Positions 22,072 to 62,693 of a stretch of DNA of 64,000 nucleotides are shown here, in pieces. The stretch is from Minisyncoccota bacterium (lineage in GTDB: Bacteria; Patescibacteriota; Minisyncoccia; UBA6257; JAGOQP01): positions 36,263 to 100,262 of the forward strand of contig JBAZTS010000002.1 of the NCBI GenBank assembly GCA_041661795.1, read 5' to 3'. The position numbers and the translations under genes are program-made. The notes below the pieces were generated by a model, which had not been told where the DNA came from, made no database searches, and saw only the letters and a list, made by a program, of their open reading frames with translations. Each line of letters begins with the position of its first letter. Within the stretch, counting starts at the first letter, position 1.

Positions 22072-22418
22072 AAAGATAAGTGAGTGATTGCCCTGACATT
22101 TGTTGGGGAGGAAAGTCCGGACTCCCATCTCCGACGTAACGTCGGAGTAAACGTATTCGCTAACAGCGAACTATCGCAAGATAAGAGGTGCGAACAGAGA
22201 CGAGTCCTAATGGAAACATTAGGGGTGAAACGGTCCCGACGCCTATTTCGGGTTAGGGACTCCGACATCCGCAAGGATCGTCGGAGCTAAATCCTTGCGG
22301 GGTGCAAGACCGTATCCGCCCAGGGCGGGTGAGTCGCTTGAACCTGAGAGTAATTGAAGGTCCAGACAAATAATCACTATCCCGACGTAACGTCGGGACA
22401 CAGAATCCGGCTTATAGC
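22072..22418 (+). ncRNA. rnpB: RNase P RNA (bacterial type A)
   Basis: P4 consensus GGAGGAAAGUCCGGACUCC at 22109-22127; ACAGAAUCCGGCUUAUAG (ACAGARxxGGCUUA) near the 3' end; P1 pairing AGAUAAG/CUUAUCU; GC-rich relative to its surroundings. Confidence 0.8.
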
Positions 22419-22500
22419 TTATCTAAACATATCAAGAATCTCTCCTTAACGGGGGGATTTTTGATTGATTTATTAAGGGTTTTTTGATACTTTTAACAAG

Positions 22501-39272: not shown

Positions 39273-39278
39273 ATCAAT

Positions 39279-39315
<37 letters not shown>

Positions 39316-39324
39316 GCTATGAAA

Positions 39325-39366
39325 TAAAAAAAGCCCGCCGGTGTCTTCCGAGGAAGTCCTGGCGGG
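39325..39366 (-). terminator. intrinsic terminator of the minus-strand GC-rich transcript
   Basis: Minus-strand RNA …CCCGCCAGGACUUCC-UCGG-GGAAGACACCGGCGGG followed by UUUUUUU. Confidence 0.65.
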
Positions 39367-39922
39367 GTGGAACAGGTGGTGCGACCTTAGCTCACTCGGT
39401 GCTGTCGAGTTCGCTCGCCCGATATACTCTCCGGGTGATACGAGAGCTCGAATCTGCCGAGACGTGACGCGTGGTCACTTTTTGCTAAGGTTTTTTGGGG
39501 TGCTGCTCCTCTTCCTGTTCGGTACTTTCTAAGAACGGTTCCCACACCGTTCTCGCCGGCGAGCTTAGCTCGCGCAGGGTAGAGGCGCCTCCTAAAGGAG
39601 GCAAAACATGAGTACAAATTCGGAATTGGATTTTTGTGAGTTTCCGGACTCACTATCTCGTTTGGTGCACCTCCCGAGAAGTCCTTTTCCTTCCACTTAT
39701 TATTGGGCCAGTTTGAGATCAGCGGTGGACACTCAAACTGTTTGCGTGCTTTCACCGAGCTTGCCGGATTTACTCGGATCTTTGGTGAGATGGCGCAACC
39801 CCACAGTTTTGACCTCCCTCAGCTGCGCGCGCAACTGAGTTGTCAGCTCACCTAGTGACAGAGGCCCCCTTTTTGACCGTTTTTTCTTCTTGGTCCGGAA
39901 GGGTTTCCGTGCTACATTTTTA
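39335..39922 (-). ncRNA. unclassified GC-rich structured transcript (~590 nt) upstream of and co-directional with dnaX; candidate SRP RNA, tmRNA or other ncRNA
   Basis: Consensus promoter (TTGACA-N16-TATAAT at 39930-39957, minus strand) and intrinsic terminator; 55-60% GC; many hairpins (CCUCCuuuaGGAGG, GCGAGCuaaGCUCGC, GAGAACGGUgugggaACCGUUCUU); no convincing long ORF. Confidence 0.4.
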
Positions 39923-39929
39923 TGCCTGT

Positions 39930-39957
39930 ATTATACTCCTTTTGTTTTATTTGTCAA
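39930..39957 (-). promoter_or_regulatory. consensus sigma70 promoter (TTGACA-N16-TATAAT) on the minus strand
   Basis: Reverse complement of 39930-39957 reads TTGACAaataaaacaaaaggagTATAAT. Confidence 0.6.
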
Positions 39958-40020
39958 GTACCCATAATAAAGTTCTAAAAACCTTGGAATTTAGTGTTTT
40001 TGGCTATATAATTAATTAGT

Positions 40021-49663: not shown

Positions 49664-49698
49664 ATAAAAAGATATTTTTCTGTTAAGGGGGATGGATA

Positions 49699-49926
49699 AT
49701 GGCTAGAAGAAAACCGGCAAGATCGATAACCATAGATAGGATGACAAGGATGATTTGCGGAGTGCTGATTCCGTCAATTATCCTTCCTCGACTACAAGAG
49801 GCGGAAGACATCGCCCTTCGGACTCTGGGGGCTTTAGGAAAGTCCCAGAGTGAAGCTCGTCATCTTTTCTGGGTGGCTATTGAGACACTCGCCAAGAGTG
49901 AGCAGATTTCCAACGGCACGCAATAG
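49699..49926 (+). CDS. GC-rich small hypothetical protein (75 aa)
   Basis: AGGGGGA RBS about 5 nt upstream of the ATG; candidate promoter TTGACT-N17-TATTTT at 49649-49677; hairpin GGCGCGGAACttgtTCCGCGCC downstream; about 50% GC against a ~35% background. Confidence 0.35.
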   Translation: MARRKPARSITIDRMTRMICGVLIPSIILPRLQEAEDIALRTLGALGKSQSEARHLFWVAIETLAKSEQISNGTQ

Positions 49927-49975
49927 ACAGCTCTTTCCAACTATAGGCGCGGAACTTGTTCCGCGCCTTCTGCAT

Positions 49976-54618: not shown

Positions 54619-54842
54619 AATTTTCTGCCACCTTTTTGGTCAGAAAAAGGTGGCGCCAAAACTGACAACCCTGTATATCCTCTCAAACAAATGAAACAAA
54701 TATCTCGCTTTGTCTTGAACTCGTATCTGCTATACTCACACACTCAAGACACTAAAAGCTCATATTTGCTTTATTTGTTAGTGTTCGGACATACGGGTTG
54801 ATATTTAGCTAATAATAGCCCTAAATCTAGTGTTTGTTAATA

Positions 54843-54871
54843 TTGACTTATTAGTAATAATATGATATACT
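54843..54871 (+). promoter_or_regulatory. consensus sigma70 promoter TTGACT-N17-TATACT preceding the GC-rich membrane-protein gene
   Basis: ttgact tattagtaataatatga tatact; a ~90-nt structured GC-rich leader follows. Confidence 0.55.
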
Positions 54872-54962
54872 CAAAACAAGTTTCGAAACCGCTTCACTGC
54901 CGTGAACAACACTACAGAAAGAGCGGTCGGAGCACTGCTCTTTCACAGAAAGGGGAACTTCG

Positions 54963-55361
54963 ATGAGTGGGATCGCTTGGTTTTTCGAGGTGTTCGCTCT
55001 GCTGTTTTTCGTGGGGACTCTGGGCGTTGCTTTCATCGGACGCCGCATCCTCAAGGCGGAGCAGGAGTCGTCGGTTCTGATGTCTTTCCTCCAGATCTGC
55101 AGTGGAGCGCTCTTCATCTTCTACGTTTTCGGACTGGGTCAACTCATGGCTCTGTCTGGACTGGAAGGTGCAAGGGCGCCCCGGTGGCTGATTCCGGGCA
55201 CCTACATCACTCTCACCATCTTCAGCGCGTTGACTCGGCTGGCTCTTCCAAGGTGGGGCAGTGACAACAAAGCGATGCAACTCTGGAGTGTCGTCAGCGT
55301 CCTGACGTTCCTACTCGGCACGTTCTGCCTCGGGGCGTACTCGTCCAACTACTTCGAGTAG
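54963..55361 (+). CDS. GC-rich (~58% GC) 4-TM membrane protein of unknown function
   Basis: AAAGGGGAAC RBS before the ATG at 54963; four hydrophobic helices; terminator hairpin at 55386-55420; overlapping alternative-frame ORFs were rejected. Confidence 0.4.
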   Translation: MSGIAWFFEVFALLFFVGTLGVAFIGRRILKAEQESSVLMSFLQICSGALFIFYVFGLGQLMALSGLEGARAPRWLIPGTYITLTIFSALTRLALPRWGSDNKAMQLWSVVSVLTFLLGTFCLGAYSSNYFE

Positions 55362-55385
55362 GTCTCCTTCTTCAGCTCTTCAACT

Positions 55386-55420
55386 GGCGGCGTCTCTCAC
55401 GAGGCGCCGCACTGCTTTTT
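55386..55420 (+). terminator. intrinsic terminator (GGCGGCGucucucacgagGCGCCGC followed by a T-run)
   Basis: GC stem followed by ACTGCTTTTT. Confidence 0.55.
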
Positions 55421-55467
55421 ATATGGTTATAAAATTTATATAAATTTCCCCGTCAATATAAATCCGC

Positions 55468-56684: not shown

Positions 56685-57245
56685 CTAGATTTTCTTTATA
56701 GTCCCCATTTTTCCTATTTCCAATATCTCCACGTATTCGTTTATTCTCATTTTTTCTAAATCTTCCACAAACTTTTTAGGAATTTTTATTTTTCCTATCC
56801 AGACACTTTTTTGCAACATTTCAAATCCAATATTCTTTACAGCTGATCTTAACCAAGCCCTCTTCCTTTTAAATTTTTCCGGAACATCAAAAGCTATCAA
56901 AATAACATTGTTTCCGGCTTCTTTCTTATAATCTAAAGCTGGAGATTGATTATTGGATACCCGGTTAATAAGTTTTTTGGCTTTTTTAGTAATCTTGATA
57001 ATCAACCCCTCTTTTTGTTCTATGAGTCCGTCTTTCTTAAGACGATAAATCATTACCCTATATCTGTTTCTTATTTTTTCTTTCTCTGTTTTGATAGTCT
57101 CATTTTTAGTGCCGATTCTATTTAAATTGTCTCTTAATATAGACGTTGAGCCCCAAGAGAATAAAAACGCTTCAAAAGCATTAGAGTATGTTTGTCTATC
57201 TACATTATTTAGAAAACTTATTGTTTCTCTATTTCTTGCCCTCAT
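56685..57245 (-). CDS. PaaX-like regulator: N-terminal winged helix plus a C-terminal Cas2/VapD-like domain
   Basis: …RNRYRVMIYRLKKDGLIEQKEGLIIKITKKAKKLI (wHTH) followed by VILIAFDVPEKFKRKRAWLRSAVKNIGFEMLQKSVWIG (PaaX C-terminal-type fold). Confidence 0.45.
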   Translation of the reverse strand: MRARNRETISFLNNVDRQTYSNAFEAFLFSWGSTSILRDNLNRIGTKNETIKTEKEKIRNRYRVMIYRLKKDGLIEQKEGLIIKITKKAKKLINRVSNNQSPALDYKKEAGNNVILIAFDVPEKFKRKRAWLRSAVKNIGFEMLQKSVWIGKIKIPKKFVEDLEKMRINEYVEILEIGKMGTIKKI

Positions 57246-57270
57246 AACAATATTATATCATCATTTATTA

Positions 57271-57306
57271 CCATTACAATTAGAACGATCGTTCTAATTG
57301 TAATGG
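57271..57306. repeat. 36-bp perfect palindrome CCATTACAATTAGAACGATCGTTCTAATTGTAATGG (copy 3, upstream of the PaaX-like gene)
   Basis: Lies 26 nt upstream of the PaaX-like start codon. Confidence 0.85.
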
Positions 57307-57417
57307 AGGGAGTATATATGATTAAGAATATTAAATAATTATCATAGAGTTATTATGATTATAGATTGATTTTATCGTTTTAATTAAAGAGTGCCTTATA
57401 AATTAGCACGGACCGCT

Positions 57418-57570
57418 TTATGGGCGGTCCGGGATGGGTGGAGCGGGTGCGGGCTTGACCACTTTGGCCACGAGGCCGATTAATATGGTCAGCATTGAAA
57501 CGGGTACTACGGTGGCGATGATGACGGACGATTCCACCACCACCAGAGACCACTTGACTAGGTAGTGCAT
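57418..57570 (-). CDS. GC-rich 50-aa hydrophobic peptide (MHYLVKWSLVVVESSVIIATVVPVSMLTILIGLVAKVVKPAPAPPIPDRP)
   Basis: AGGAGG 4 nt upstream of the ATG; single TM; terminator hairpin GGACCGC/GCGGUCC overlaps the stop codon. Confidence 0.3.
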   Translation of the reverse strand: MHYLVKWSLVVVESSVIIATVVPVSMLTILIGLVAKVVKPAPAPPIPDRP

Positions 57571-57689
57571 TCAACCTCCTTTCTTCTGAGAATCTTGGTG
57601 ATCCACAGATAGAGGTTGTATCCTGTTTGAATAACGTGGGCCATCTTTTGGCCCAGTATTGTCGTCCGATGAAACGTTGTTGTAGACAT
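57558..57689 (-). CDS. GC-rich 43-aa peptide (MSTTTFHRTTILGQKMAHVIQTGYNLYLWITKILRRKEVECTT)
   Basis: AAAGGAGAC RBS 5 nt before the ATG; the downstream part of the listed 57558..57860 ORF, whose upstream part is the wrong frame of the neighbouring gene. Confidence 0.25.
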   Translation of the reverse strand: MSTTTFHRTTILGQKMAHVIQTGYNLYLWITKILRRKEVECTT

Positions 57690-57703
57690 CACGTCTCCTT
57701 TGG

Positions 57704-57949
57704 TTAGGCGATGGCGCCGGGGTATTCTTCGGAGATCTTCTCGATCTCTTTTTCCTCTTTCTTCACTTGGTCTGTGAGCACAAGGAAGAAAAAGATGATG
57801 GCCATGATTCCCACAAGAGTGGCAAAGGCCCATGAAAAGCTCTTGGGGAGTTGGAACCATCGTGATAAGTGATATCCTCCAAAAGTGAGAATTACCACGG
57901 CCACGGTCGCTCCAACTTTACGGAGCAAGTTGAGTAGTCCCGGGAACAT
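57704..57949 (-). CDS. GC-rich 81-aa 2-TM protein
   Basis: AAGGAGG RBS 6 nt before the ATG; two hydrophobic helices. Confidence 0.3.
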   Translation of the reverse strand: MFPGLLNLLRKVGATVAVVILTFGGYHLSRWFQLPKSFSWAFATLVGIMAIIFFFLVLTDQVKKEEKEIEKISEEYPGAIA

Positions 57950-58193
57950 TACTCTCCTCCTTTTTGGTGTACATCTTTCGAAGTTTCTCCTGTAGAGCGT
58001 TGAGCCCCGTGAAGACCAGGGCTCCGGTCAGAAACCCGATACAAGCCAACGATCCTCGGATCTCCAATCCTGGAGGCAGTGGAACTCGGTCTGCCCATAG
58101 GACCGTGAAGAAACAGGAAGCAGCAGTTGAAAGGCCAACGAAAGTGAACCAAACCACTCTTGCGATCAACTCCAGAACTTTTCCGATTTTCAT
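57918..58193 (-). CDS. GC-rich 91-aa 2-TM protein
   Basis: GAGGAGG RBS 7 nt before the ATG; first gene of a 4-ORF GC-rich micro-operon. Confidence 0.3.
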   Translation of the reverse strand: MKIGKVLELIARVVWFTFVGLSTAASCFFTVLWADRVPLPPGLEIRGSLACIGFLTGALVFTGLNALQEKLRKMYTKKEESNVPGTTQLAP

Positions 58194-58280
58194 GCTCTGA
58201 TCCTCCTCTGTTTTTCACATTATAATAATCATTGAATTTTGTCCATGTTTGATTTAGAATAACCCTTTGGTTGGCATTTT

Positions 58281-61193
58281 ATGAAAAAAGAGAATCAATC
58301 AATAGAAATAATCGGGGCGCGTGTCCACAACTTAAAAAATGTGGATGTTTCTATACCTAAAAATAAATTGGTAGTTGTTTGCGGAGTTTCTGGTTCCGGA
58401 AAATCATCTTTAGCTTTTGATACTTTATACGAAGAGGGACAGAGAAGATATTTAGAAAGTTTGTCCTCTTATGTCAGACAGTTTTTAGGAGGATTTAAAA
58501 AACCAGATGTTGAAAAAATAATCGGCTTGTCTCCGACTATCGCCATCAACCAAAAAAGCGTTTCTTCCAATCCGCGTTCAACTGTGGGCACAATAACTGA
58601 AATTTACGATCATCTCCGTCTTCTCTTTGCTCGAGTTGGAATTCCTCATTGTCCAAATGACAACATTGTCATAACCGCTCAGACACCACAAGAAATCGCC
58701 AATAGAATTATTGACTTGGCTCATAACAACGAAATTGTTTTGCTGGCTCCAATAATCTCGGGGAAAAAGGGTCAGCACCAGGCGATTTTTGACGAGATTG
58801 AGAGGGGCGGATATTCACAGGTCAGGGTTGATGGGTATTTTTATCCCATTGCCGAAGCCAAAAATATTTCTCTGGATAAAAATAAAAAACACGATATCGA
58901 AGTTACCGTAGGTAAGTTTTTTACTGGAGTAAAAATAGATATCCAAAGAAATATATCCAAAATGGAAAGAGAGGCATTGAAAAACAAAAATAAAAAGATA
59001 GATAAGTTGATAAAAGAAGAAAAGTTAGAACTTTTAGAAAACATCAGAAAAGGACTGGCCATGGGGCAGGGAAATATTGTTGCTCATACCAAGGGGAAGG
59101 ATTTTTCCTTTTCCGAGAATTATTCCTGTTCTAAATGCGGATTTTCTTTACCCAAAATTGAACCCAGAACTTTTTCATTCAACAGTCCTTTTGGAGCTTG
59201 TAAAAATTGTCAGGGATTGGGAACTAAACTTGAAATAGATTTGGATTTGATAATCAACCCGGAAATCTCTTTGGAAGCGGGAGCTATAAAGCCCTGGTTT
59301 TCTTTAAGCCGTATGGGAAGAAGAGCTCTTGGCGCCAATTGGCAGAGATTTGTTACTGAGACCATTATTAGGGATTCTGGGCTGTCCCCAAGAACTCCTT
59401 TTGGAAAACTTCCCAAAGAAGTCCAGGATAAAATTTTATATGGTGATAAAGAAAATTATACTCATCTTAAAGACGGCGATTGGGAAGGAAAAACTTTATT
59501 TGAGGGAATTATTCCTCGCTTGGAGCGACTTTATTACGAAACTGAATCTGATTTTATCAGACAGGAACTTTCTAAATACATGCTTGAAAAAACCTGTCCC
59601 GTTTGTAATGGGTCGCGTTTAAGAGAAGAAGCATTGGCGGTAAGAGTGGGAGGAAAGAACATTTCTGAATTGACTTCAATGGCGGTTTTGGATTTTGTTA
59701 GTTTTTGCCAAAAACATATTTATGAAAAAATGTCGGAAAATCAAAAAACGGTTGCTGTTTCAATAATCAAAGAAATTTCCACTAAATCAAATTTTTTAAT
59801 TAACGTTGGTTTGGAATATATGAACTTGGGAAGGTCAGCGACTACTTTGTCAGTAGGAGAAAATCAAAGAATCCGCCTGGCTACCCAGTTGGGTTCTGGA
59901 TTGTCTGGAGTGATTTATGTTTTAGACGAACCGACTATTGGGCTTCATCCTCGCGACACTGACCGTCTCATAAAAACATTAAAAGAACTTAGAGATTTAA
60001 ATAATACCGTGATTGTGGTGGAACATGATGAGAGGGTTATAGAAAGCGCCGATTGGGTTATTGAAATTGGACCATTAGCCGGAGAAGAAGGTGGCAAGGT
60101 TGTTTTTGAAGGAACGCCATCAGATTTGAAAAAATCAAAAACGTTAACTGGATTATATTTTGCCGGCAAGAAAAAAGCGCAATCGGGACTTTCTAAAAAT
60201 AATTCTGAAAATAAAGAATTTATAAAACTGTATGGCGCTTCACAGTTTAATTTAAAAAACATAAATCTTTCCATTCCTTTAAAAAAATTTGTCTGTGTGG
60301 CAGGAGTTTCGGGCTCGGGTAAAAGCACGTTAATGTTAGATGTTTTTGCCAAGGCCCTTCAGAAAGAAGTTCTTAGGATGAGCGTGGCTGTAGGTGAATA
60401 TAAAAAACTTGAGGGGGAAAGAAATATAGACAAAGTGGTTATTATTGACCAAAGTCCTATCGGCAGAACCCCTCGTTCCAATCCGGCTACTTATACGGGA
60501 ATTTTTACTCCCATTAGACAATTTTTCACTCGCTTGGAAGAGTCGCAGATAAGGGGATATGGGCCATCATATTTTAGTTTCAACGTTAAGCCGGGAAGAT
60601 GTGAGGCCTGCAGAGGGGAAGGATTTAAAAAGGTGGAGATGTATTTTTTGCCGGATATGTACGTAGAGTGTGAAGTTTGTAAAGGCACCAGATTTTCTCC
60701 CGAGGTTTTGGATGTTAAATATAAAAACAAAAACATTGCTGATGTTCTTTCTATGAGCGTTAAGGAAGCGCTGGCGTTTTTTCACCAGTTTCCTTTTATT
60801 GGCGATAAGTTAAAAATTCTTGATGAAATCGGTCTTGGATATATGAAACTGGGACAGCCGGCGACAACTTTGTCGGGAGGAGAAGCTCAAAGGATAAAAC
60901 TTTCCGATGAACTTGCCAAAAGAGCTACAGGAAGGACTATTTATATTTTAGACGAACCGACTGTGGGACTTCACTTTGAAGACACAAAAAAACTTTTATA
61001 TATTTTGCGCTCGTTGGTTCTAAAAGGTAATACGGTTTTAGTTATAGAACACAATCCTGATGTTTTAAAAGAATCGGACTGGATTATTGAACTTGGTCCC
61101 GAAGGTGGAGACAAGGGAGGAAAAATAATTTTTGAGGGAACACTGGAAGAGATAAAAAAGAAAAAAACAATGACGGGGAAGTATTTAATATGA
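58281..61193 (+). CDS. uvrA: excinuclease ABC subunit A
   Basis: 970 aa; two ABC modules ([12 protein letters not shown]…, LSGGE), zinc-finger Cys pairs, C-terminal …[16 protein letters not shown]. Confidence 0.95.
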
Positions 61194-61411
61194 AGATAAT
61201 AATCATCGTAAAACCAAATAAAAAAGAAAATAAGGTTGTGAAAATAGGAGAGAACATTTTTGAAATTTATACGAATCAACCGGCTAAAGAAAATAAAGCC
61301 AATTTGGATATTATTCAACAAATGTCCAAGTATTTTAAAGTATCAAAATCAAAGGTTTCTATATCTTCCGGATTAAAGTCAAAGAAGAAAATTTTGGAAA
61401 TAAATATATAA
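61190..61411 (+). CDS. DUF167 (YggU-like) family protein
   Basis: 73 aa; …KANLDIIQQMSKYFKVSKSKVSISSGLKSKKKILEI matches the DUF167 C-terminal consensus (AN…L…VxKsxVxIxxGxxSRxK). Confidence 0.65.
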   Translation: MKIIIIVKPNKKENKVVKIGENIFEIYTNQPAKENKANLDIIQQMSKYFKVSKSKVSISSGLKSKKKILEINI

Positions 61412-61443
61412 AAAAAGGGGGCTCCCGGTGTTGCTGGGAGCCC
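61410..61443 (-). terminator. intrinsic terminator of the minus-strand GC-rich transcript (GGGCUCCCagcaacaccGGGAGCCC followed by UUUUUUU)
   Basis: Seen on the reverse complement; it also caps the convergent DUF167 gene. Confidence 0.6.
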
Positions 61444-61940
61444 AAAGTGCGGTAAGGAGGTCAATGTACGATGCGGTGCCTGCCGTGCGTCGCTTCGCTC
61501 GTTCGGGTCTTGGTGGTTCAGATCAGGGCCAGTCGTGCCCGAAAACTTAACTTTCTGGCCCATTGCTTCTCGGCACGCATGGTTTCTCCTTGCATGGATT
61601 TTTGGTCCACGCAGCTCTGCCCTCAGCGCTTGACGGTGGCCTCGTCGTTGGTGCGGTGGTTGTTCTGACGCTGTTGCATGGGATTTCTCCTCGCGTGAAC
61701 GTCGTCGGTTGTTGGTGCTAGCTATGGCTCAAGTCAAGCTTTCTTTTCGGTGAGCTTGACGAGCAGTGCTAGCGCCTGTTCTGGGTTTCGTTTTTTATCG
61801 GTATAACCTTCACAAGGTTATACCAGGGTTTCCTTCCTGATTGGCGGTCAAGAAGGTTGTTTAATCATCCAGCATTGTCCTAACTAACGGAACGGCGGTT
61901 CGACGTCCACGTGCATCGCTTTCCTCCTTATGTAGTTTAC
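61443..61940 (-). ncRNA. GC-rich (~57% GC) transcript with only mini-ORFs (10, 18 and 20 codons, each with a strong SD); function unknown
   Basis: Promoter TTGACT-N17-TATCCT (minus strand, 61948-61976); first mini-ORF UAAGGAGGAAAGCG-AUG (MHVDVEPPFR); ends at the terminator at 61410-61443. Confidence 0.35.
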
Positions 61941-61947
61941 TTATTTC

Positions 61948-61976
61948 AGGATAAAACAAAAACGGCTATTAGTCAA
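61948..61976 (-). promoter_or_regulatory. sigma70-like promoter (TTGACT-N17-TATCCT) on the minus strand
   Basis: Reverse complement reads TTGACTaatagccgtttttgtttTATCCT. Confidence 0.5.
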
Positions 61977-61991
61977 ATATTTTTGTGAAAC

Positions 61992-62693
61992 TTACTTTTG
62001 ATGCTGAAACACATCTATTATCAAATTTTGGTCGGGGATAATTTCTTTTTTTAATGCTTTGACAATGACCTGAGCAACTTGATTTGGAGTATGTTTTGGT
62101 TCATGGTCGGGAAAACATGTTTTAAACATTCCAGTATCGGTTGAGCCGGGAGTAATTGTAAAAACGTCTATATTGTATTTGGAAAGTTCGTCTTTTAACG
62201 ACTGAGAAAGATTTATAATCGCCGCTTTAGTTAGAGAATAAATAGAGAGTCCTTCAATCCCGTAAAATCCGGCTCCAGAAGAAATATTGACGATTAATCC
62301 GGATTTCTTTTCTTTCATAATTTCAAGAACCCTTTTTATAACATTTAAAGTTCCTTTGATGTTAACGTCTATAATAAAATTCCAGTCAGGATAATCGGTT
62401 TCTTCAAAATTTTTATTCTGGGCAACAGCCGCATTGTTTACTAAAATATCTATACTTCCGAATTTATCAATCGTTTCTTCAATAACTTTTTCAACATCTT
62501 CTTTTGTTCTTATATCGCCTTGAGTAACTAAAAAATTGGGATTTTTTAAAATCACTTCCGTATCCAAATTATCGGGGATATTAATGGAAACCGTAGAAAC
62601 TTTACATCCTTGGTCAAGCAAGAGTTTGGCTGTTTCAAGACCTATTCCCGACGTTGCTCCAGTTATAAATACAACTTTATTTTTTATGTCCAT
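61992..62693 (-). CDS. short-chain dehydrogenase/reductase (SDR)
   Basis: VVFITGATSGIGLETAK (TGxxxGxG), NNAA, and a S…YxxxK catalytic tetrad arrangement. Confidence 0.8.
   Translation of the reverse strand: MDIKNKVVFITGATSGIGLETAKLLLDQGCKVSTVSINIPDNLDTEVILKNPNFLVTQGDIRTKEDVEKVIEETIDKFGSIDILVNNAAVAQNKNFEETDYPDWNFIIDVNIKGTLNVIKRVLEIMKEKKSGLIVNISSGAGFYGIEGLSIYSLTKAAIINLSQSLKDELSKYNIDVFTITPGSTDTGMFKTCFPDHEPKHTPNQVAQVIVKALKKEIIPDQNLIIDVFQHQK

What the first reader, a model, noticed from the sequence alone, without database searches (positions are those of the whole stretch)
61410..61976. Second GC-rich promoter-terminator bounded transcript carrying only SD-led mini-ORFs (10, 18 and 20 codons)
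On the minus strand TTGACT-N17-TATCCT is followed by UAAGGAGGAAAGCG-AUG (MHVDVEPPFR-stop), with a Pro-Pro stalling-prone end. About 450 nt of ~57% GC structured RNA follow, containing two more SD-led mini-ORFs (MQQRQNNHRTNDEATVKR, MRAEKQWARKLSFRARLALI) and a strong terminator. There is no downstream co-directional gene to regulate, because the transcript converges on the DUF167-family gene and uvrA. This resembles a leader-peptide or riboregulator unit, or a small-protein/ncRNA hybrid, that has been dropped in here. Its composition and SD usage match the other GC islands.
Basis: seen in the sequence. Interest (0 to 1): 0.5.

Follow-up and report, generated by a model that had tools for sequence, protein, structure and literature searches.

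The report
Orphan GC-rich micro-ORF RNA cassette
A self-contained, GC-rich transcription unit of about 530 nt, carrying only three tiny reading frames led by ribosome-binding sites, sits in an insertion hot-spot of a Paceibacterota (CPR) genome; no relative was found in any searchable collection, so it is a lineage-specific accessory cassette of unknown role, not a known regulatory RNA.

Summary
On the minus strand, TTGACT-N17-TATCCT (61976-61948) is followed by UAAGGAGG-N6-AUG. Three SD+AUG modules follow, with ORFs of 10, 18 and 20 codons, and then a strong terminator (61443-61410). No Rfam family matches. I found no DNA or protein relative in phage, plasmid, viral or metagenome collections, or in loci from related genomes.

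Synteny explains the location. The SDR|DUF167-uvrA junction is an insertion hot-spot in Paceibacterota. It is empty in three relatives. In four others it holds unrelated orphan small-protein cassettes with the same layout: promoter just after the SDR stop, strong SD, terminator. This unit has that layout but no real ORF, and stop counts are at random expectation in all frames.

The SD+AUG modules are far beyond chance (0 of 5000 shuffles). Native genes almost never use SD. The predicted RNA has a very stable 250-nt 5' domain (z -5.7) and an unstructured 3' half that carries ORF2 and ORF3. A 5'-3' helix buries SD1 and AUG1 against an anti-SD.

Best reading (about 0.4): a translationally gated micro-ORF mRNA with a structured leader containing a uORF. 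Rivals are a dead cassette and a pure ncRNA. All available copies are identical, so covariation cannot be tested. Interest is modest.

The parts
61948..61976 (-). Sigma-70-type promoter: -35 TTGACT (61976-61971), 17-nt spacer, -10 TATCCT (61953-61948). Predicted transcription start near 61941.
   Evidence: A TTGACx -35 sits 9-15 nt after the SDR stop in the cassettes of L089, L095 and L096; L088 has one after a terminator.
61913..61930 (-). SD1 UAAGGAGG (61930-61923) and AUG1 (61916-61914). This is the 5' strand of the closing helices P1 and P1b.
   Evidence: Pairing probabilities 0.97 and 0.99; P(unpaired) is 0.01 for SD1 and 0.00 for AUG1.
61884..61916 (-). Mini-ORF1, MHVDVEPPFR plus stop (10 codons). 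Codons 2-5 form the 5' strand of helix P2 (61910-61901).
61695..61910 (-). Structured 5' domain. It is closed by P2 (61910-61901 with 61704-61695) and contains hairpins 61856-61832 (9 bp), 61825-61799 (12 bp, perfect palindrome) and 61773-61717 (18 bp in 3 segments).
   Evidence: probabilities 0.94-1.00. z = -5.7 for 61690-61940. Inverted repeat I2.
61623..61692 (-). SD2 GAGGAG (61692-61687), 2 nt downstream of the P2 3' strand, and mini-ORF2 MQQRQNNHRTNDEATVKR plus UGA (61679-61623).
   Evidence: GC1/2/3 = 0.58/0.32/0.84. P(unpaired) for SD2 is 0.47.
61518..61612 (-). Hairpin 61612-61592, SD3 AAGGAG (61591-61586) and mini-ORF3 MRAEKQWARKLSFRARLALI plus stop (61580-61518). ORF3 is in frame with ORF2 and separated from it by a single UGA. 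The SD2 and SD3 start modules are short direct repeats of each other.
   Evidence: repeats D2 and D3.
61453..61474 (-). 3' strand of the closing helices: GCAUCGU (61474-61468) and anti-SD CCUCCUUA (61460-61453). Read on the plus strand, the same bases are a UAAGGAGG SD 10 nt upstream of ATG 61471, the start of a 65-codon ORF (61471-61668, +).
   Evidence: 5'-3' duplex -29.2 kcal/mol against -20.3 +/- 2.9 in shuffles, P = 0.0065, and it is the best partner of the 5' end in the transcript. Plus-strand ORF.
61410..61443 (-). Intrinsic terminator: stem GGGCUCCC/GGGAGCCC, 9-nt loop, CC, U7. The U-run overlaps the stop codon of the convergent DUF167 gene.
   Evidence: probability 1.00.

Best explanation
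What is shown. The element is a self-contained accessory transcription unit with its own promoter, a GC-rich body of about 530 nt and its own terminator. It lies in an insertion hot-spot between the SDR gene and the DUF167-uvrA operon of a Candidatus Paceibacterota genome. In related genomes this spot is either empty or holds unrelated, SD-led orphan small-protein cassettes with the same layout. This cassette has genuine-looking ribosome-binding modules but no long ORF, and no detectable relatives.

What is inferred. The transcript is an mRNA-like RNA with two parts. The first is a very stable 250-nt 5' leader that contains a 10-codon uORF (ORF1). The second is an unstructured 3' half that carries two micro-ORFs of 18 and 20 codons, in one frame and separated by a single UGA. 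In the finished transcript the 5' SD1/AUG1 is buried by pairing with an anti-SD (CCUCCUUA) placed just before the terminator. ORF1 could therefore be translated only while the RNA is still being made, or after 3' trimming. Ribosomes on ORF1 would melt helix P2, whose 3' strand ends 2 nt before SD2, and this would couple uORF translation to initiation at ORF2 and ORF3. The most likely products are micro-peptides, the RNA itself, or both, as in a dual-function RNA. The physiological role is unknown.
For: Layout and coordinates. SD+AUG modules: 3 loci, 0 of 5000 shuffles reach the count. Native genes lack SD, with 64 of 69 having none, whereas ORFs in the other GC islands carry it. Hot-spot: empty in L093/L094, L097 and L098; unrelated SD-led orphan cassettes with a TTGACx promoter 9-15 nt after the SDR stop in L089, L095 and L096, and one in L088 after a terminator. 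Structure: z = -6.0 for the whole unit. Without the terminator, z = -5.1 on the minus strand against -3.0 on the plus strand; the 5' domain gives -5.7 and the 3' half +0.1. P1, P1b and P2 have probabilities 0.95-0.99 and SD1/AUG1 are fully paired. The 5'-3' duplex has P = 0.0065. In the 3' half, weak codon-position GC periodicity falls in the mini-ORF frame, with p = 0.025-0.07 per window, and ORF1 and ORF2 show GC2-low/GC3-high patterns like island genes B and C50.
Against: No transcription or translation data exist. All four available copies (the window and three assemblies) are 100% identical, flanks included, so neither covariation nor peptide conservation can be assessed. The ORF lengths of 10, 18 and 20 codons are what random sequence of this composition gives: the mean open run is 26 codons, and stop counts of 8, 6 and 4 compare with 6.1 expected. 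The peptides themselves therefore show no sign of selection. Protein-coding island mRNAs are also strongly structured (B mRNA z = -5.3), so structure alone does not mark a riboregulator. The closing helix can also be read as two inverted copies of the same RBS module, because the plus strand has UAAGGAGG-N10-ATG. P2 on its own is not beyond chance; that is my estimate.
Confidence: 0.4

Rival explanations
1. It is a non-functional remnant. A small-protein cassette of the kind seen in this slot in relatives, and in islands B and C here, has lost its coding body. Only the promoter, RBS modules and terminator survive.
For: The size and layout match the single- or two-gene cassettes in L088, L089, L095 and L096. 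There are three RBS modules, but their ORFs are no longer than random expectation. ORF2 and ORF3 are in one frame, split by a single UGA. Weak coding periodicity extends beyond the mini-ORFs.
Against: No frame is depleted of stops anywhere in the first 240 nt, and the longest open stretch there is about 31 codons, so one or two frameshifts cannot restore an ORF. GC stays at 53% in a 36% GC genome. The 5' domain is the most stably folded segment measured in the window (z = -5.7). No homologue of any frame was found.
Confidence: 0.3
2. It is a structured non-coding RNA acting at the RNA level. It could be a trans-acting or decoy RNA whose SD-like motifs serve as pairing elements, 30S-binding elements or stabilisers (STAB-SD-like) rather than as start sites.
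For: It is a long GC-rich intergenic region in an AT-rich genome, the class enriched for structured ncRNAs (PMC11109978, PMC6429828). z = -5 to -6, with a strand asymmetry favouring the minus strand. The 5' and 3' ends pair, as in many stable RNAs. The neighbouring island A is a similar ORF-less unit bounded by a promoter and a terminator.
Against: No Rfam match even at E <= 10. No structural relative was found with a covariance model of the 5' domain in 175 kb of the window and related loci. Every SD motif has an AUG at start-site spacing, which a pure ncRNA does not explain. The 3' half is unstructured (z = +0.1). GGA motifs are not enriched, 11 against 9.9 expected, so it is not a CsrB-type sponge.
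Confidence: 0.2
3. The real gene is on the plus strand: a 65-codon ORF (61471-61668) led by UAAGGAGG-N10-ATG and read as a third gene of the uvrA-DUF167 operon. The minus-strand features would then be antisense or incidental.
For: SD+ATG on the plus strand. GC3 is 0.73. The hairpin after DUF167 has no U-tract on the plus strand, so read-through is possible.
Against: The composition is rich in Leu, Arg, Ser, Cys and Val, which I judge typical of a chance open frame in GC-rich DNA. An open run of 65 codons is not unusual here; my estimate from composition is about 0.1 per start. The high GC3 is shared with the antisense frame. There is no plus-strand promoter or terminator bounding it. No family matches. 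The gene callers behind L001-L003 did not call it.
Confidence: 0.05
4. It is a type I toxin-antitoxin-like (hok-like) mRNA, kept inactive by 5'-3' fold-back.
For: A 5'-3' closure buries the first RBS. The RNA is highly structured. Nearby islands encode small membrane peptides.
Against: None of the SD-led peptides is hydrophobic: GRAVY values are -0.5, -2.3 and -0.3, and there is no TM-like window. No plus-strand promoter-like site exists for an antisense RNA. No Rfam toxin or antitoxin RNA family matches.
Confidence: 0.03

Closest known systems
Phage 'morons' (Juhala/Hendrix, HK97/HK022; cited from my own knowledge), meaning autonomous accessory transcription units
   Same: It has its own sigma-70 promoter and intrinsic terminator. 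It is inserted between two genes that are adjacent in related genomes, and its base composition differs from the flanks (53% against 36% GC).
   Different: It lies among housekeeping genes (uvrA, groESL, rmuC) of a CPR chromosome, not in a prophage. It carries no protein-sized ORF. No donor is known.
hok-type type I toxin mRNAs (fold-back inhibition by 5'-3' pairing; cited from my own knowledge)
   Same: A long-range helix between the extreme 5' end, including the RBS, and a segment near the 3' end predicts a translationally closed full-length RNA.
   Different: There is no hydrophobic toxin ORF, no antisense promoter and no sequence or structure match to the family.
Dual-function RNAs such as S. 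aureus RNAIII/hld, SgrS/SgrT and SR1/SR1P (cited from my own knowledge)
   Same: It is a terminator-ended, highly structured RNA of about 0.5 kb that also carries SD-led micro-ORF(s).
   Different: There is no homology (Rfam negative), no identified base-pairing target and no evidence that the peptides are made or conserved.
Leader-peptide (uORF) translational attenuators, for example erm or cat leaders (cited from my own knowledge)
   Same: A short SD-led ORF at the 5' end overlaps a helix (P2) whose other strand abuts the next SD.
   Different: No resistance or biosynthetic gene follows, only 18- and 20-codon ORFs before the terminator. There is no known arrest motif and no conservation to test.
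'Unnamed' or low-ranking candidates of the GC-IGR ncRNA discovery pipeline (PMC11109978)
   Same: It is a long, GC-rich intergenic region in an AT-rich genome with too few representatives to judge structure.
   Different: This one additionally carries statistically non-random RBS modules and sits in a demonstrated insertion hot-spot.

Membership tests
Any curated Rfam family | The covariance-model score reaches the family's gathering threshold. | tested here: not met
   Whole window at gathering thresholds: only RNase P and two tRNAs. Region 61300-62050 at E <= 10: the best hit is 15 bits against a threshold of 47.
Type I toxin-antitoxin (hok/sok-like) | A small hydrophobic or transmembrane toxin ORF. 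| tested here: not met
   GRAVY values are -0.48, -2.34 and -0.34, and no window approaches TM values. For comparison, island peptide C50 reaches 2.63.
Type I toxin-antitoxin (hok/sok-like) | A cis-encoded antisense RNA with its own promoter. | tested here: not met
   There is no plus-strand promoter-like site in 61000-62400. This is a consensus scan only.
Type I toxin-antitoxin (hok/sok-like) | A 5'-3' fold-back that closes the RBS of the full-length mRNA. | tested here: met
   P1 and P1b have probabilities 0.97 and 0.99. The duplex is -29.2 kcal/mol, P = 0.0065 against shuffles. This is a prediction only.
Leader-peptide attenuator or uORF-controlled gene | A short SD-led ORF at the 5' end of the leader. 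| tested here: met
   ORF1, 10 codons, with UAAGGAGG-N6-AUG.
Leader-peptide attenuator or uORF-controlled gene | A co-transcribed downstream structural gene that is regulated. | tested here: not met
   Only 18- and 20-codon ORFs lie before the terminator, and the next genes are convergent.
Leader-peptide attenuator or uORF-controlled gene | Alternative structures that link uORF translation to the downstream SD or terminator, supported by conservation. | tested here: inconclusive
   P2 pairs ORF1 codons 2-5 with the sequence ending 2 nt before SD2. There is no variation among copies to test it.
Dual-function sRNA (RNAIII type) | The peptide is translated, and the RNA base-pairs with target mRNAs. 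| not testable with these tools
   There are no expression data, and the target search is unconstrained. Rfam models for this type, RNAIII included, do not match.
Moron-like accessory cassette | Own promoter and terminator, inserted between genes that are adjacent in relatives, with deviant composition. | tested here: met
   Promoter and terminator. Empty site in L093/L094, L097 and L098. GC 53% against 36%.
Moron-like accessory cassette | It carries a protein-coding gene and lies in a prophage. | tested here: not met
   There is no ORF longer than 20 codons behind an SD on the transcribed strand. The neighbours are uvrA, DUF167, SDR, rmuC and groESL. There are no PHROG hits.
IS481-like (rve) transposase remnant | Similarity that extends beyond a short motif, or an rve-domain hit. 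| tested here: not met
   There is only a 33-nt match (30/33, E = 0.04) to the 'NRTIKEATVKR' codons. It does not extend in tblastn. Pfam and NCBIfam are negative at E <= 10.
CsrB/RsmZ-type protein sponge | Many-fold enrichment of GGA motifs. | tested here: not met
   11 GGA against 9.9 +/- 2.6 in shuffles.

The most novel reading that the evidence does not exclude
Together with island A, the unit would be an RNA-only version of a previously undescribed class of Paceibacterota accessory cassettes. It would be a structured RNA of about 530 nt, closed by an SD:anti-SD helix, that displays several perfect ribosome-binding modules in a genome whose own genes hardly use SD. It would act as a translation-gated dual-function RNA or as a decoy for 30S subunits (anti-SD). 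It would not be a carrier of a conventional gene.
Probability: 0.1. Interest if true: 0.6.

Novelty: new member of a known kind. Interest (0 to 1): 0.3.

Why it matters
On its own this is a single-lineage orphan, so its direct importance is limited. It does document three points. First, the SDR|DUF167-uvrA junction is a recurrent insertion site in Paceibacterota for self-contained cassettes made of a promoter, an SD, small ORF(s) and a terminator. Second, in this genome such cassettes are GC-rich and SD-led, while housekeeping genes are AT-rich and essentially SD-less. That sharp contrast could be used to pick out accessory or recently acquired units in CPR genomes. Third, at least one such cassette carries no protein-sized ORF. 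This raises the question of whether CPR bacteria exchange or generate RNA-level or micro-peptide cargo. If transcription and translation were confirmed, it would give a compact natural example of SD:anti-SD 5'-3' gating.

Tried and rejected
(1) Known RNA families. Rfam at gathering thresholds on the whole window and at E <= 10 on the region gave nothing. ARAGORN found no tmRNA.

(2) One element family with the other GC islands. Pairwise BLAST of islands A-D and of D against the whole window gave only chance-level short matches. A covariance model of the 5' domain hit only itself in 175 kb.

(3) Transposase relic. A 33-nt match to alphaproteobacterial IS481-like transposase codons looked promising. 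It does not extend at the DNA or protein level, and the rve domain is not detected. I judge it a chance match between two stretches of GC3-rich codon-like sequence.

(4) Homologue hunts.
- blastn against phages and plasmids.
- A six-frame concatenated query against the 5.8-billion protein set. The candidate list saturated, so this negative is weak.
- Back-translated spaced-seed scans of IMG/VR and JGI metagenome contigs with two different frames.
All were negative. SDR homologues jump from 100% to 61% identity, so there are no near relatives from which to measure covariation.

(5) Decayed long ORF. Stops are at random expectation in every frame. There was no similarity to the slot proteins of L088 and L089.

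(6) Type I toxin. The peptides are hydrophilic and there is no antisense promoter.

(7) CsrB-like sponge. GGA motifs are not enriched.

(8) Defence or phage origin of the island proteins. PADLOC and PHROGs gave nothing. Island proteins B132 and C91 are ORFans.

(9) Position-specific nucleotide scoring to choose between the minus-strand mini-ORF frame and the plus-strand 65-codon ORF was uninformative.

Full report
**Context.** The window is 36% GC. It comes from a Candidatus Paceibacterota MAG. The flanking SDR protein is named as such by NCBI, and the same 5.8-12.7 kb stretch occurs with 100% identity in three independent assemblies. The finding lies in the 580-nt intergenic region 61412-61991. 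On one side is an SDR gene (61992-62693, minus strand). On the other is a DUF167/PF02594 gene (61190-61411, plus strand), the last gene after uvrA (58281-61193).

**Checking the observation.**
- TTGACT-N17-TATCCT at 61976-61948.
- UAAGGAGG at 61930-61923, six bases before AUG 61916 (MHVDVEPPFR, stop).
- GAGGAG-N7-AUG 61679 (18 codons).
- AAGGAG-N5-AUG 61580 (20 codons).
- A GC-rich 8-bp hairpin followed by U7 at 61443-61410.

There are small corrections. GC is 53%, not 57%. The three mini-ORFs share one frame. The terminator's 9-nt loop explains why the consensus scan missed it.

Several features go beyond chance.
- Every cluster of AGGAG-type motifs on the minus strand is followed by ATG at start-site spacing. 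None of 5000 dinucleotide shuffles reaches that count.
- The density of such modules is roughly 20 times the window background (my estimate from the listing).
- The promoter hexamers alone are unremarkable. However, a TTGACx box occupies the same position just after the SDR stop in several relatives.

**What the surroundings show.** I took SDR homologues of 53-61% identity, the closest that exist, and fetched their contigs to survey the same junction.
- It is empty in L093/L094 (a 55-nt gap), L097 and L098.
- It holds unrelated orphan cargo in L088 (130 aa), L089 (145 aa), L095 (a 114-aa multi-TM protein plus a second cassette), L096 (two small membrane proteins) and one further contig.
- Each cargo has a TTGACx promoter, a strong SD and a terminator. 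In L089, L095 and L096 the promoter lies 9-15 nt after the SDR stop; in L088 it follows the SDR gene's own terminator.

The junction is therefore an insertion hot-spot for self-contained cassettes, and the unit studied here has exactly that layout and size.

Within the window, other GC-rich islands are of the same kind. Island B is a 132-aa membrane ORFan. Island C has three small membrane ORFs. An island at 49664-49975 holds a 75-aa ORF. All are SD-led and have terminators. B and C91 have no relatives among 5.8 and 1.8 billion proteins. By contrast, 64 of 69 native genes have no SD motif at all. The islands share no sequence with one another.

**What the unit itself contains.** No reading frame is protected. 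Stop counts from AUG1 to the terminator are 8, 6 and 4 against 6.1 expected, and the mini-ORF lengths equal the random mean of about 26 codons. No frame matches Pfam, NCBIfam, PADLOC or PHROGs. A simple broken gene is therefore unlikely.

Weak codon-position GC periodicity exists only over about 61760-61550, in the mini-ORF frame. ORF1 and ORF2 have the GC2-low/GC3-high pattern of the island genes.

The predicted RNA is bipartite. The 5' 250 nt form a very stable domain (z = -5.7), closed by P2 (61910-61901 with 61704-61695) and holding three strong hairpins. The 3' half, with ORF2 and ORF3, is unstructured (z = +0.1). The minus strand folds better relative to shuffles than the plus strand does: -5.1 against -3.0 without the terminator.

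SD1 and AUG1 pair with GCAUCGU...CCUCCUUA (61474-61453) just before the terminator, with probability 0.97-0.99. The duplex energy is beaten by only 0.65% of shuffles, and it is the best partner of the 5' end anywhere in the transcript. One caveat applies. Read on the plus strand, the same bases are another UAAGGAGG-N10-ATG module heading a 65-codon open frame. The 'helix' can therefore also be seen as two inverted RBS modules.

**Search for relatives.** The following were all negative:
- Rfam.
- blastn against phages and plasmids.
- Spaced-seed scans of IMG/VR and JGI metagenome contigs in two frames.
- A six-frame protein query (a weak negative).
- BLAST against all fetched loci.
- A covariance model of the 5' domain.

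The only hit was 33 nt (30/33) to the 'NRTIKEATVKR' codons of alphaproteobacterial IS481-like transposases. It does not extend and has no protein-level support. I treat it as chance.

**Interpretation.** What is shown is that this is a lineage-specific, autonomous accessory cassette in a demonstrated hot-spot. It has non-random ribosome-binding modules, no protein-sized ORF and no known relatives.

What is inferred (confidence about 0.4) is that it is a micro-ORF mRNA with a long structured leader containing a uORF. Its first RBS would be closed by a 3' anti-SD in the finished transcript, and uORF translation would open P2 next to SD2.

The main rivals are these:
- A dead cassette (0.3). This is favoured by the random ORF lengths. 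It is disfavoured by the absence of any stop-poor frame, the retained GC content and the exceptional 5' structure.
- A pure structured ncRNA (0.2). This is favoured by the GC-rich intergenic logic (PMC11109978) and by ORF-less island A. It is disfavoured by the AUG found at every SD and by the unstructured 3' half.

A plus-strand 65-codon gene, a hok-like toxin mRNA and a transposase relic are each unlikely.

All available copies are identical and the nearest genomes lack the element. Covariation and peptide conservation, the tests that would decide among these readings, therefore cannot be run with the data reachable here.

**Verdict.** The feature is real and its position is explained, but its function is unresolved. 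It does not belong to any curated family. It works most like a moron-type accessory unit carrying a dual-function or micro-ORF RNA. Interest is modest (0.3). The more interesting point is the class-level contrast between SD-led GC-rich cassettes and an SD-less AT-rich core genome.

Noticed in passing
whole window; e.g. starts at 58281, 61190, 62693, 62744: Native genes almost never have a Shine-Dalgarno motif: 64 of 69 have none within 20 nt. Many have a TATAAT-like box just upstream of the ATG, which suggests leaderless or short-leader mRNAs. Every ORF in the GC-rich islands has a strong SD.
   Followed up: partly
window 39273-40020 (island A): A perfect TTGACA-N17-TATAAT on the minus strand (~39956-39928) and a terminator (~39366-39330) bound a GC-rich RNA of about 600 nt. 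It has no convincing ORF and no Rfam hit at E <= 5; z = -4.9. It is a second cassette without a protein-sized ORF and shares no sequence with the finding.
   Followed up: partly
window 54619-55467 (island B) and 57246-58280 (island C): These are GC-rich cassettes bounded by promoter and terminator. They encode SD-led small membrane proteins: 132 aa in B, and 91, 81 and 50 aa in C. B132 has GC3 of 0.74 against about 0.3 for native genes. B132 and C91 have no relatives in the 5.8- and 1.8-billion protein sets.
   Followed up: partly
window 49664-49975: Another GC-enriched intergenic region holds an SD-led (AAGGGGGA) 75-aa orphan ORF (49699-49926, +) followed by a terminator hairpin. It has no Pfam or Rfam match.
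   Followed up: partly
window 57271-57306: A 36-nt perfect palindrome (TTACCATTACAATTAGAACG|CGTTCTAATTGTAATGG...) lies between the PaaX_M-domain gene (56685-57245, -) and island C. It may be an operator for that regulator.
   Followed up: no
L088, L089, L095, L096 (slot between the SDR and DUF167 genes) versus L093/L094, L097, L098: In related Paceibacterota the same junction is either empty or filled with mutually unrelated orphan cassettes, several of which encode small membrane proteins. In L089, L095 and L096 the -35 box lies 9-15 nt after the SDR stop; in L088 it follows a terminator. This is a recurrent insertion hot-spot with no recognisable att-like sequence.
   Followed up: partly
window 61657-61625: A 33-nt stretch inside mini-ORF2 is 88-91% identical to the 'NRTIKEATVKR' codons of IS481-like transposases on Sinorhizobium, Shinella and Sphingomonas plasmids. 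There is no extension and no protein-level support, so it is probably chance.
   Followed up: yes
window 61583-61602 and 61674-61697: The start regions of mini-ORF2 and mini-ORF3 are short direct repeats of each other (AGGAGAAA(U)CC(C)AUGC and AAAUCC(C)AUGCAA). This suggests local duplication of an RBS module.
   Followed up: no
window 22072-22430: Bacterial RNase P RNA class A (138.8 bits). It served as a positive control showing that functional RNAs stand out as GC-rich islands in this genome (z = -5.1).
   Followed up: yes
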